Shown here in pieces: positions 3,001 to 6,000 of a stretch of 64,000 nt of DNA; positions within the stretch are counted from its first letter, which is position 1; every line of letters begins with the position of its first letter. A program made the position numbers. This DNA comes from an uncultured Nitrospirales bacterium (GTDB taxonomy: Bacteria > Nitrospirota > Nitrospiria > Nitrospirales > NS-4), in the NCBI GenBank assembly GCA_964472655.1, contig CAYYLQ010000005.1:1-64000 (forward strand), given 5' to 3'.

Positions 3001-6000
3001 CGCCCGGCGCGAAGAACAGCGTCTCCTCGAAGAACAGATGCGTCTTGCGATAGACGCCGATCAACCCCTTCGGCCCCACCAGCACGGCCGAGTTGTAGAG
3101 ACGGTCACCCGCCCGCTCGACCAGGCCGGCGACGAGATGCATGCGCCGGTCGGCGGCAATCTCTATCAGCCGTTTTGTCGTAGACCCGCCCGGGATGTCC
3201 TCGGCCAGGGCTTTGCCCTCATCAACCGAGACGAACTGATAGCCCGTATTGAAGAGCTCCGGCAGGACCAGCAGGTCGCACTTCACCGTAGCCAGCCGTT
3301 CGCCGACATGGTCCAGGTTACGCTTGACCTCGCCAAAGAGGGGATCGAATTGGAAGTAGCCGATTTTCATAATCTTCAAATGAAAACGGGCAGGGAGCGC
3401 ACCCCCTGCCCGTTCCTTCGACCGTTCAGTTGAAAGGCGAGGACGTTACTTCGCTTCCTTGAGGTGCATCAGCGCCTCTTCAGCATGTTTTGTGCCGCCG
3501 GCCGCATCGCCCTTCTTGCCCGCGCCTACCGCGCCCTCCAAATGTTTGACTCCTTCAGCCGCATGGGGACCCTGGGCCATCTTCGCATGCTTCAGGGCCG
3601 CCTCGGCATGTTTCACGAGGACATCGGCATGGCCAGCCTTGCCATGCTCAATGGCTTCCTGGGTATGCTCGACGGCTTCTTGGGCATGCGACTTGTCGGC
3701 CCAGGAAATTCCACTCACGACGAACGTCAGGGCGCCCAGGATCAGCGCCGCCACTGCAAGTTTACGCATCATGACAGATACCTCCTTGCTCGAACGTTAA
3801 CAGCCTTCACCACCGACTACCCTTTGCCGTTCCGTCGTTCCCAATGCGTGCGTACAGCTAGGAAACCACCCTAACACGGGGGTTTTTCCGGTGTCAAGAA
3901 CGCCCCGGAACGGCCCTGAGTTGTAGTACGGGACGACCACGCGGACGGATTCATTCCAGCTTGACCCGCTTCTGTAACTCATACAATTCAACGATGTCGC
4001 CGGCCGTATTGGCGTCCTCGGGGCGTTTGTCTTCGCGGAGAAAGCCCTGGACGCGCGGAAAGCGCAACGCGTAACCGATGCCCTCGGCATCGGCTCCGCA
4101 GGTGTGCATGGGGCTGCGGGTGATCTCGTCCGCCGCCACGGTGATCACGAAGACCGGCTGGACCCATACGTCCGGCTCCATCTTGGAGTCCACGCGCGCC
4201 GGCTTGTGCGGAACCGCGACGCCGTCCAGCCGCTCCCGCAACCGTACCCACTCTTCGTCGGAGAATCCCGTCCCGACTTTGGAGACCGTCTTGAACGTGT
4301 CGGTGGCGGGATCATAGACGGCGGCCAGCACGGTGCCGATGCCGAAGCTTGCCCGCTTGCCGCCGCCGCGAAAGTAGCCGACCACGCAGAGGTCTACCGT
4401 GTCCGACAATTCACCCTTATAATTGCGCTTGAGTTTGATCCAGTCGAAGTTCCGGGCGCCCGCCGTGTAAGTGGAATCCAGCCGCTTGGCCACGATGCCC
4501 TCCAGGCCGCGCGCGACGGCCGCTTCAAAAATCTGGCGCACACGCGCCGGATCCTGCGTTTCTTCGGCCTCGGCCGGTTCGACAATGTTCCCTGGCGCAA
4601 TGCGCCTCAGCAACTCCGCGCGCCGTTCGCTGTACGGCCGTGGCGTATAGTCCTCCCCGTCGACATACAGCAGGTCGAACACGTACAGCTTGAGCGGAAA
4701 CTCTTTGGCGTAGTCGGCGACTTCGTGCTTGCGCTTGCGCTGGATGGTGGTCTGAAACGGCAGCAGTTCGCCGGTGCCCTCGTCGAACGCCAGCGCTTCG
4801 CCTTCGATCACGATGTCGCGGGCCCGTACCTGCCGCTTGACCGCCTGGACGATGTCGGGAAACATCGGCGTCGTGCGCTCCAGGTTCCGGGAGAAAATGT
4901 CGACCTGGTCGCCCTTCTTATGAATCTGACATCGAATCCCGTCCAGCTTCGGCTCGATCGCGCAGGGCCGGATCGTCTCAATTTTTTGCTGTTTCGAGCC
5001 TTTGGTTTTCACTCTCTCCACCAACTTCATCTTGTCAACGATCTGCTCGGGCTCCGCGACGCGCTCACACAAGGCCATGCGGATCGGATAGCCGACCTGC
5101 ACCGCGATCTTTGCGACCGCCTCGATTCCGCCTCGGCCCGCGAGTTCACCGATGCGGCCGAGATCGGAACAGAGGTTGTACGCGCGCTCGAGCTCGGGCT
5201 TGAACTCGCGCCCGCCCAGCTTGGCGAGCGCCAGCGCCTCCAGCACCGTCGCGTCTCCGACGCCGAGGCGCAGCCGGCCCATCACGAAGCGGGCGATGTA
5301 CTTGGCCTCGATCGGCGACGACGCGGACAACAAGTCGGTCAAGTTGCAGAGCTTTTTCTCGACGGACCCTTCCCCGGCGGTCTTCGCGATGCCCTGAAAC
5401 TCCCTGTAGACCTTCGCGACCGTCAACCCCTCGCCGGCACGGTCTGCCAGGAGCGTCTCGGCTGTCGTCCCAAGATCGCCGCTCAACTTGAAATGGATCA
5501 GCACTTCCTCAGGAGACTTCTGAGACGCCTCGGCGAGCGCGCGCGTCAGGAGCTTGTCGGACATGCCGATCTCGAACCCCTCCTGGAATGCCGGCTGGAG
5601 ACGACCCTGGCTCATGTAGATGATGGGCTTGATATCATCGGGAGCGGTCTGCCGGAAGAGCTCGGCCAGGATCTCGAACATCTCCAGCCGCTTGGACGTG
5701 GCCTCGAGACGCTCGAAAAAGGTCGCGAGGTCCTGGAACCTCATCGGCGGCGGATGGGAGGGCGCGCTCAATGCGTCGTCGGCGGCTTGTTGGGGGAGAT
5801 CCGCTGGACCGGAGGACGCGCCTGTTCCTTGAGGTTGACGACCGGCAGAGTGTAGTCGTTGCCCCATTCCCACCAGGAGCCCGGATAGTTCTTCACCGTC
5901 TCGAAGCCGGCCAGCTTCAGGATGAAGTACAGCCAGGCTGAGCGGACCCCGCCCGTGCAGTAGCAGACGACTTCCTTCCCGGCGCCGATGCCTGCCTTCT

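What a model noticed while it worked through the whole genome (the two positions that open the first line are those of the whole stretch)
3951..5744. No NAD-dependent LigA: archaeal-type ATP ligase is the sole DNA ligase
This 99%-complete genome has no NAD+-dependent DNA ligase (LigA); its only ligase is g00735, a 597-aa archaeal-type ATP-dependent enzyme (DNA-binding, adenylation and OB domains), which by elimination must serve replication. Across class Nitrospiria this ligase and LigA are almost mutually exclusive, so ATP-ligase replication is the state of whole families, not a one-species oddity.
Evidence so far: No LigA adenylation or OB domain in six frames. LigA in only 2 of 20 other NS-4 genomes and 0 of 5 of family f22, but 94 of 95 in the two other Nitrospirales families. 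g00735 orthologue (70% or more identity) in 19 of 20 NS-4, an ATP ligase in 5 of 5 f22, and 0 of 89 in the LigA-bearing families at E<=1e-100. In other Nitrospiria orders: 0 of 30 genomes with this ligase have LigA, including single-contig genomes G303 and G307; 14 of 16 without it have LigA. Best named matches are Dictyoglomus (49%) and crenarchaeal ligases (43%; call 120); best PDB match 2hiv, E 3e-132. Searches 121, 122, 133, 218 found no report for Nitrospirota.
(Added by a program. Inside this text positions count along the whole contig: contig position 1 is position 1 of the stretch shown here. "Call 12" and the like, gene names such as g00115 and contig names such as C1 are that model's own, and its searches are not shown. 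The text may have been shortened before it was handed on; [...] marks where a part breaks off. The agent that wrote the report below was given it as the finding of a first reader that could run no searches.)

Follow-up and report, generated by a model that had tools for sequence, protein, structure and literature searches.

The report
ATP ligase ancestral, LigA repeatedly regained
This bacterium's draft genome has no NAD-powered DNA ligase, the enzyme textbooks assign to all bacteria, and carries one archaeal-style ATP-type ligase that likely seals its DNA during replication; gene trees and gene order suggest this was likely the old state of its whole class, with the usual enzyme picked up again later several times.

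Summary
Confirmed and extended. Window 3951-5744 (-) encodes an intact 597-aa archaeal-type ATP ligase, the only DNA ligase found in G000; no LigA. In 558 genomes sampled from the phylum, 88 carry this ligase, 444 LigA, 1 both and 27 neither. Two single-contig, 99%-complete genomes of a Leptospirillum-type family have it as sole ligase, so assembly gaps are no general explanation. New here is the direction. The ATP ligase largely follows the RpoB tree and keeps an old slot before a nitrilase gene. LigA in class Nitrospiria is polyphyletic. Two lineages carry betaproteobacterial-type LigA, one in the ATP ligase's exact slot. The two large LigA families of the order keep the window's operon with the ATP ligase cleanly missing. 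The replicative role is inferred by elimination, not assayed. Precedents: Prochlorococcus (preprint) and Babela (one line). This scan noted LigA-less bacteria before in at least seven other genomes. No Nitrospirota report surfaced in eight paper searches. Verdict: new variant of a known kind, interest 0.62.

The parts
3951..5744 (-). Archaeal-type three-domain ATP-dependent DNA ligase, 597 aa (P0001); only DNA ligase gene found in G000
5229..5738 (-). DNA-binding domain (PF04675, residues 3-172); lacks, near residue 100, a 12-residue loop present in the Sulfolobus enzyme 2hiv
4428..4988 (-). Adenylation domain (PF01068, residues 253-439) with motif I EPKLDG; predicted catalytic Lys266 at 4947-4949
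   Evidence: E264, K266, D268, G269 invariant in 50 homologues
4026..4343 (-). OB domain (PF04679, residues 468-573) with motif VI RFPR
4971..5030 (-). Basic insert of about 20 residues (about 239-258) just before motif I; present in genus g1 (593-597 aa), absent from other genera of the family (577 aa)
5768..6652 (-). Rhodanese-domain gene directly upstream; left flank of the ligase slot
3446..3772 (-). Small metal-binding protein gene directly downstream; right flank of the slot
2579..3379 (-). Carbon-nitrogen hydrolase (nitrilase-like) gene; marks the ligase slot in families f1, f5, f8, f10 and f15
6656..8952 (-). Multiheme cytochrome c gene (6656-7975) and histone-deacetylase-family gene (7972-8952); upstream part of the gene run kept in f2 and f3 without the ligase
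21..2582 (+). UvrA-family gene (open at the contig start), convergent with the run; also beside the run in both f2 genomes checked

Best explanation
The gene at 3951-5744 is an intact archaeal-type ligase, predicted to use ATP, that likely does all nick sealing in this bacterium, Okazaki-fragment joining included, and it was likely the inherited ligase of class Nitrospiria, later displaced several times by LigA genes gained from other bacteria. Mechanism (from established ligase chemistry, not assayed): Lys266 is adenylated, AMP moves to the 5' phosphate of a nick left by the bacterial Pol I, and the three domains close round the duplex to seal it. It works in a bacterial replisome: DnaN and PolA are present, PCNA and Ku are not found, and the loop that corresponds to the archaeal PCNA-binding loop is gone. 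Shown: the gene, the absence of LigA matches, mutual exclusion, purifying selection, the slot and the tree conflicts. Inferred: ATP use, replicative role (about 0.9) and ancestral state for the class (about 0.75). Once a second ligase arrives, one of the two appears to be lost quickly, since almost no genome keeps both.
For: Sole ligase in G000. Of 558 distinct genomes 88 have the ATP ligase, 444 LigA, 1 both, 27 neither. It is the only PF01068 gene in 41 of 48 class genomes and in 15 of 18 checked from other classes. Single-contig G417 and G425 have one ATP ligase and no LigA. dN/dS is 0.12-0.15 against 5 relatives. DnaN and PolA found; PCNA and Ku not found. Of 23 strong RpoB splits the ATP ligase tree recovers 17 and contradicts 1; the LigA tree recovers 8 of 18 and contradicts 7. 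With outside sequences, one clade for the class's ATP ligases is not rejected (AU p 0.68), while one clade for the class's LigAs other than f5, f10 and G211 is rejected (p 5e-5). f5 and f10 LigA are 62-68% identical to Sulfuricystis LigA and nest among betaproteobacterial LigAs at 100/100. f2/f3 LigA groups with outside sequences (SH 98-99), one named Methylohalobius. In f5, LigA (G001, G011) sits in the same slot as the ATP ligase (G026), with the same 4-base overlap on the nitrilase start. 4 of 4 f2/f3 genomes checked keep the window's gene run with 180-280 bases between the rhodanese and SMBP hits, against 1,995 bases in G000.
Against: No assay of activity, cofactor or essentiality. The full RpoB constraint is rejected for the ATP ligase too (delta lnL 66, AU p 0.002), though far less than for LigA (543, p 2e-32; 200, p 9e-6 after dropping G211, G410, G017). 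The species tree is one gene with a quick search. Outside LigA rows were picked for closeness to f2 and f10 LigA, which favours breaking groups, and only 13 outside ATP ligases were in the test. 27 genomes have neither gene, among them G381 (f1, 93% complete, five other ATP ligases) and G209 (f2, 95%). Seven ATP-ligase genomes of the class, including closed G072 and G080, carry further ATP ligases, so elimination there points to some ATP ligase, not this one. G400 and G106 have a frameshifted copy and no LigA. In families f29, f31, f34 and f36 ligA keeps cinA beside it in 9 loci and these LigAs lie in one 100/100 clade, so LigA may be old there. Kin are not independent.
Confidence: 0.75

Rival explanations
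1. The ancestor had both enzymes, LigA for replication and the ATP ligase as an accessory repair ligase beside nth and uvrA. Lineages then lost one or the other, and only some LigAs were later swapped for foreign copies. The ATP ligase is still the replicative ligase in G000 today.
For: nth lies within five genes downstream of the ligase in 10 of 43 loci, across three classes. cinA-ligA order and a 100/100 LigA clade in f24, f29, f31, f34-36. In genus g93 both states occur at different loci. Some LigA groups (f6, f8, f9, f11) have no named donor.
Against: Only 1 of 558 genomes keeps both, and that LigA looks foreign. No LigA locus is shared between families of the class except the ATP ligase's own slot. 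Clades f2/f3+f8 and f2/f3+f6 are rejected (p 1e-4 and 0.002).
Confidence: 0.17
2. LigA was ancestral and was replaced many times, recently, by ligases gained separately from archaea.
For: Closest solved structures are crenarchaeal. The f28 ligases are only 45-47% identical and branch apart. The review PMC7470946 repeats the suggestion that such bacterial ligases came from archaea (passages).
Against: The class's ATP ligases fit one clade that tracks RpoB and share a slot across orders. The archaea with a 60% match are 2 of 31 in their phylum; the other matches are 34-46%, which fits transfer into those archaea.
Confidence: 0.05
3. LigA is present but lies in unassembled gaps or lost contigs.
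For: G000 has 54 contigs. 8 of 312 f2/f3 genomes also lack a LigA match, a miss rate of about 2.6%.
Against: 19 of 21 family genomes and 28 of 28 f28 genomes lack it, including single-contig G417 and G425; G072 and G080 lack it too. In G000 the trpE-trpG run that flanks ligA in f2 lies mid-contig, with no ligA in the 12 kb before it and no N gap.
Confidence: 0.02
4. The enzyme is the sole ligase but uses NAD+, ADP or several cofactors, as recalled for some archaeal ligases, so 'ATP replication' overstates the change.
For: Recalled only (Thermococcales and some crenarchaeal ligases); no call shows it. Cofactor cannot be read from sequence with certainty.
Against: No NAD-binding Ia domain; all family matches are to ATP-dependent models.
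Confidence: 0.06

Closest known systems
AD-Lig P of high-light Prochlorococcus marinus (bioRxiv 10.1101/2020.05.11.089284; part 1 of 2 of the text read: abstract, introduction, results)
   Same: Bacterium without intact LigA; ATP ligase inferred to be replicative; the two ligases trade places at one locus.
   Different: There the ATP ligase is a distinct small-cluster type, the swap is recent and runs LigA to ATP ligase within one species, and activity was assayed. Here the ligase is archaeal-type, spans a phylum, looks ancestral for a class, and the in-place swap (f5) runs ATP ligase to LigA. No assay here.
Babela massiliensis / TM6SC1 (PMC4378268; two passages read)
   Same: States that the NAD-dependent ligase is lost and replaced by an ATP-dependent one in a bacterial lineage.
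   Different: One clause about two reduced genomes, with no tree or ligase type in the passages seen. Here the genomes are 1.4-5.2 Mb and many families are involved.
Saccharolobus (Sulfolobus) solfataricus replicative ligase, PDB 2hiv; TIGR00574 dnl1
   Same: Full-length match, E 2.8e-132; same three domains and catalytic motifs.
   Different: P0001 lacks a 12-residue loop in the DNA-binding domain. PMC6212786 (passages) says the Sulfolobus ligase binds PCNA through a flexible loop in that domain; that this is the same loop is my inference. The host has DnaN and no PCNA match.
Bacterial Lig B accessory ligases (PMC7470946 and PMC5052709, passages)
   Same: Same domain order; thought to derive from archaeal ligases.
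   Different: Both reviews state that bacterial ATP ligases occur only in addition to LigA. Here they occur instead of it, without the Lhr/metallophosphoesterase/exonuclease cluster.
Dictyoglomus turgidum Dtur_0780 (PMC5167688; passages of Table 5)
   Same: The word 'ligase' occurs once in the main text, for an ATP-dependent DNA ligase, in a complete genome.
   Different: The paper makes no comment on a missing LigA in the text searched; absence of LigA there was not tested by me.

Membership tests
Archaeal/eukaryotic-type ATP-dependent DNA ligase (TIGR00574 dnl1) | DNA-binding, adenylation and OB domains in that order | tested here: met
   PF04675 3-172, PF01068 253-439, PF04679 468-573
Archaeal/eukaryotic-type ATP-dependent DNA ligase (TIGR00574 dnl1) | Score above the curated cut-off | tested here: met
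   422.9 bits against 217.8
Archaeal/eukaryotic-type ATP-dependent DNA ligase (TIGR00574 dnl1) | KxDG lysine and motifs III, IIIa, IV, V, VI intact (motif names recalled) | tested here: met
   K266, E314-G315-E316, E415-G416, K420, K437, K439, R561-F562-P563-R564 invariant in 50 homologues
Archaeal/eukaryotic-type ATP-dependent DNA ligase (TIGR00574 dnl1) | Nick sealing with ATP as cofactor | not testable with these tools
   needs purified protein
Archaeal replicative ligase coupled to PCNA | PCNA-binding loop in the DNA-binding domain and a PCNA gene in the host | tested here: not met
   loop absent; no PF00705 match in G000
NAD+-dependent LigA | PF01653 adenylation and PF03120 OB domains | tested here: not met
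Bacterial Lig B repair-cluster ligase (TIGR04120) | Score above cut-off; cluster with Lhr helicase, metallophosphoesterase and exonuclease; LigA also present | tested here: not met
   151 bits against 400; neighbours are rhodanese, SMBP, nitrilase; no LigA
LigD / NHEJ ligase | Polymerase or phosphoesterase domain and a Ku gene | tested here: not met
   Ku has no match over cut-off
Prochlorococcus-type ligase displacement | No intact LigA in closed genomes | tested here: met
   single-contig G417, G425, G072, G080; G000 itself is a draft
Prochlorococcus-type ligase displacement | The two ligases occupy the same locus in relatives | tested here: met
   f5 exact slot, f8 same slot inverted; not so in f2/f3, f10 or genus g93
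Prochlorococcus-type ligase displacement | ATP ligase shown active and needed for replication | not testable with these tools

The most novel reading that the evidence does not exclude
[quoted passage not shown] The ligase belongs to an old bacterial branch shared with Aquificota, Chloroflexota and CPR lineages that has even passed back into archaea, so NAD-ligase replication is not a universal ancestral trait of bacterial phyla.
Probability: 0.35. Interest if true: 0.82.

Novelty: new variant of a known kind. Interest (0 to 1): 0.62.

Why it matters
Two reviews state that bacterial ATP ligases are always additional to an essential LigA, and the Prochlorococcus preprint calls the preference for NAD ligases a long-standing question. 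This phylum offers many natural swaps, some between sister genera and one at the identical locus, running in the unexpected direction (ATP ligase to LigA). That makes it possible to ask what, if anything, selects for either cofactor. A family whose ligases are named Leptospirillum by the sources lacks LigA in 28 of 28 genomes and includes cultured bioleaching bacteria (culture status recalled), so the claim can be tested at the bench. It also warns that LigA is a poor universal marker or phylogenetic gene. The surprise is tempered by the precedents and by the recalled fact that ATP ligases can stand in for LigA in laboratory enterobacteria.

Tried and rejected
Clamp binding: the conserved C-terminal Q-[KR]-x-V-K-[LVM] tail suggested a beta-clamp motif. 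A complex prediction of DnaN with ligase residues 446-597 gave 'no answer', which is neither support nor evidence against. The glutamine is also present in crenarchaeal ligases. Archaeal donor in Hydrothermarchaeales: only 2 of 31 genomes of that phylum carry the 60% type, so not adopted. LigA in G558 and G211 as inherited copies: G558's is 86% identical to an f2 LigA on a 2.4-kb contig with f2 gene order, likely a misbinned contig; G211's is about 39-46% identical to the phylum LigAs printed, on a 6-kb contig with no homologue in G000. Same-locus swap in genus g93: not found; the ATP ligase slot is simply empty in G412, G478 and G538. The first split count (13/1/4 of 18 and 7/5/5 of 17) lost splits through a bug and was redone. 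Careful mixture-model trees did not finish; the quick trees are cited. No structure was predicted because the sequence match to 2hiv is full-length. Earlier-finding look-ups for Nitrospirota, by sequence and by place added nothing relevant.
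Full report
The gene. Window 3951-5744 on the minus strand gives a 597-residue protein without stops. It has the DNA-binding, adenylation and OB domains of ATP-dependent DNA ligases. It passes TIGR00574 (423 bits, cut-off 218) and falls short of every narrower NCBIfam model, including the bacterial repair and NHEJ ligases. Its closest solved structure is the Sulfolobus ligase 2hiv (E 2.8e-132), ahead of Thermococcales (E about 1e-88) and human LIG1 (E about 1e-78) (organism labels recalled from the PDB codes). 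The catalytic residues are invariant in 50 homologues. dN/dS against five relatives is 0.12-0.15, and GC and GC3 (0.63, 0.83) lie in the host's range. The gene is intact, under purifying selection and not a recent foreign arrival.

No LigA in G000. PF01653 and PF03120 find nothing at E up to 10. TIGR00575 finds two short hits far below cut-off, and 40 LigAs from the phylum give one 41-residue hit at E 0.005. PF01068 finds only this gene. The genome has DnaN and PolA, and no PCNA or Ku over cut-off. In f2, ligA lies a few genes from trpE-trpG; in G000 that run is mid-contig with no ligA in the preceding 12 kb and no N gap.

Distribution. In all 20 other genomes of the family, 19 have the ATP ligase and 2 have LigA. 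Both LigAs sit on short contigs. G558's is 86% identical to an f2 LigA with f2 gene order and is probably misbinned. G211's is distant from all others and its contig has no homologue in G000. In a class sample of 401 genomes, 49 have the ATP ligase (E<=1e-60), 335 LigA, 1 both and 18 neither. In 157 genomes from other classes of the phylum, 39 have the ATP ligase, 109 LigA, none both and 9 neither. Together that is 88, 444, 1 and 27 of 558. Kin are not independent, so no p value is given, but the two states interleave: a RpoB tree needs 15 changes over 68 rows. Families f5, f10, f11, f20, f29 and f31 and genus g93 are mixed. The ligase is the only PF01068 gene in 41 of 48 class genomes and in 15 of the 18 checked from other classes. 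Family f28 has it in 26 of 28 and LigA in 0 of 28. Its single-contig, 99%-complete members G417 and G425 have exactly one ligase. Sequence clusters of f28 ligases hold records named Leptospirillum ferrooxidans and L. ferrodiazotrophum, so f28 is likely that family. The f15 g70 ligase groups with one named Ca. Manganitrophus (100/99); these genomes, including closed G072 and G080, also carry two other ATP ligases. Against the pattern: most 'neither' genomes in other orders are incomplete (8 of 9 at 86% or less), but G381 (93%), G209 (95%), G125 and G196 (99%) lack both. The miss rate for LigA in f2/f3 is 8 of 312. G400 and G106 have frameshifted copies, possibly assembly errors. Three CPR genomes with 35-37% relatives, one a complete chromosome by its title, also gave no LigA match.

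Direction, by trees. RpoB was found in 78 of 80 chosen genomes and 70 were put in the tree (left out G072, G086, G255, G308, G431, G440, G460, G499, G516, G532). The ATP ligase tree (65 rows) recovers f1 (100/100), f1+f4 (89/97), a block of six families f10, f14, f15, f16, f18, f19 (100/100) and a block f22, f29, f30, f31 (100/100). RpoB has the same groups, with f17 added to the six-family block. Of 23 RpoB splits with SH 95 or more the ligase tree recovers 17, contradicts 1 and leaves 5 open; the LigA tree (40 rows) recovers 8 of 18, contradicts 7 and leaves 3 open. Forcing the whole RpoB backbone is rejected for both genes, mildly for the ATP ligase (delta lnL 66, p 0.002) and strongly for LigA (543, p 2e-32; 200, p 9e-6 without three outliers). 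With 13 outside rows, one clade for the class's ATP ligases is not rejected (p 0.68), nor for the phylum without f28 (0.48) or with it (0.23). A mixture-model quick tree puts all 19 class rows plus G431 together at SH 92. For LigA, f5+f2/f3 (p 2e-5), f8+f9+f10 (4e-5) and the class without G211 (0.0015) are rejected on phylum rows alone. With 20 outside rows the class's remaining LigAs as one clade (5e-5), f2/f3+f8 (1e-4) and f2/f3+f6 (0.002) are rejected. f10 and f5 LigA are 62-63% and 67-68% identical to Sulfuricystis LigA and nest among betaproteobacterial sequences at 100/100, while f2/f3 LigA is 48-51% identical to it. f2/f3 LigA groups with 14 outside representatives (SH 99), of which one is named, Methylohalobius (80 of the 150 hits were put in the tree, and 10 were looked up). 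Phylum LigAs fall in nine or ten separate places in that 121-row tree. Caveats: the species tree is one gene; outside LigAs were chosen for closeness to f2 and f10; the ATP ligase outgroup is thinner; no root was inferred.

Direction, by gene order. The window's run (deacetylase, cytochrome c, rhodanese, ligase, SMBP, nitrilase) is kept in 4 of 4 f2/f3 genomes checked, with only 180-280 bases between the rhodanese and SMBP hits. The nitrilase follows the ATP ligase within three genes in 9 of 43 loci from f1, f5, f10 and f15, and G080 adds a tenth. nth follows within five genes in 10 of 43 loci from three classes. The slot is therefore older than the order, and f2/f3 lost the gene from it. In f5 the betaproteobacterial-type LigA of G001 and G011 fills the same place as the ATP ligase of G026, between the same upstream genes and nitrilase-nth-yicC-gmk, with the same 4-base overlap on the nitrilase start. 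In f8 an unrelated LigA stands inverted just before nitrilase-nth. No other LigA locus is shared between families of the class. Outside the class the picture is less clear. In f29, f31, f34 and f36 ligA keeps cinA beside it and these LigAs lie in one 100/100 clade. In genus g93 the ATP ligase slot is empty in three LigA genomes and filled in G496; other genera (G449, G542, G544) have the ligase after the same upstream genes. Both genes may be old there.

How it likely works. By standard chemistry the enzyme adenylates Lys266 and seals nicks left after Pol I; being alone, it would serve replication and excision repair alike, which suits its frequent place near nth and uvrA. It lacks a loop of the Sulfolobus DNA-binding domain. 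PMC6212786 (passages) describes PCNA binding through a flexible loop in that domain, and I infer it is this loop. How the ligase reaches the fork is open. The rarity of genomes with both enzymes suggests they are interchangeable and that one is soon lost after a transfer; this is inference.

Origin. The closest named relatives outside the phylum are Hydrothermarchaeaceae (62%), Methanocellales and Thermoflexus (57%) and Aquificaceae (54%). Only 2 of 31 genomes in the phylum of the Hydrothermarchaeales record carry the 60% type, which fits transfer from bacteria. 'Archaeal-type' is thus a statement of similarity; an archaeal donor was not shown.

What is known. Reviews say bacterial ATP ligases are always additional to LigA (PMC7470946 and PMC5052709, passages). 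Exceptions in print: high-light Prochlorococcus (bioRxiv 10.1101/2020.05.11.089284, part 1 of 2 read) and Babela/TM6SC1 (PMC4378268, passages). Dictyoglomus turgidum's table lists one ligase, ATP-dependent (PMC5167688, passages). Eight searches of the open library (listings only, the top 3-25 rows of each) showed no report on ligases of Nitrospirota or Leptospirillum. Subscription papers are not held, among them a recalled 2016 survey of bacterial ATP ligases, and no supplements were read; either could list LigA-less genomes. This scan's earlier notes report LigA-less bacteria with an archaeal-type ligase in seven other genomes; they are unchecked and not independent support.

Verdict. The enzyme is a member of a known family and the displacement is of a known kind. 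What is new is its scale in this phylum, the evidence that the ATP ligase is the inherited state of a class with LigA regained, an exact in-place swap, and a cultured genus in which to test it. Interest 0.62.

Noticed in passing
L111:5253-7055 (+), G420: Of the phylum ATP ligases aligned, only this one has a long loop at the site of the archaeal PCNA loop, holding QPVSLF, which resembles a recalled clamp-binding motif; the Iainarchaeum ligase (L047) has QMTLF there.
   Followed up: no
L044 (G565) and G598:C13:10390-12099: Two of 31 genomes of an archaeal phylum carry a ligase 60-61% identical to P0001, against 34-46% in the others: possible bacteria-to-archaea transfer or misbinning.
   Followed up: partly
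L070 (G567), L050 (G568), L069 (G569): CPR genomes (Dojkabacteria, Doudnabacteria) with a 35-37% relative and no LigA match; one is titled a complete chromosome.
   Followed up: partly
G381 (f1) and G209:C4:224585-225169 (f2): G381 (93% complete) has neither LigA nor this ligase but five other ATP-ligase matches; G209 (95%, about 20 contigs) has no LigA match and one ATP ligase in a 573-aa frame. Possible third solutions or gaps.
   Followed up: no
L155-L157 (G425, G409, G417): RpoB of family f28 lies in 1,724-1,730-aa frames, about 400 residues longer than in other families, with an insert after about model position 220.
   Followed up: no
L113 and L114 (G501); G560:C1 and C6: Two genomes carry two full copies of the ATP ligase; both bins have 4-6% contamination.
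   Followed up: no
L207:5090-7015 (-), G024: ATP ligase with about 70 extra residues in one open frame.
   Followed up: no
window 2579-9298: The run of TPR, deacetylase-family, multiheme cytochrome c, rhodanese, SMBP and nitrilase genes is kept in order in f1, f2 and f3; no shared function is evident.
   Followed up: partly
L189 (G410, f20): Its LigA nests with genus g93 LigAs of family f29 (100/99) although RpoB places f20 outside that block: a likely transfer within the phylum.
   Followed up: partly
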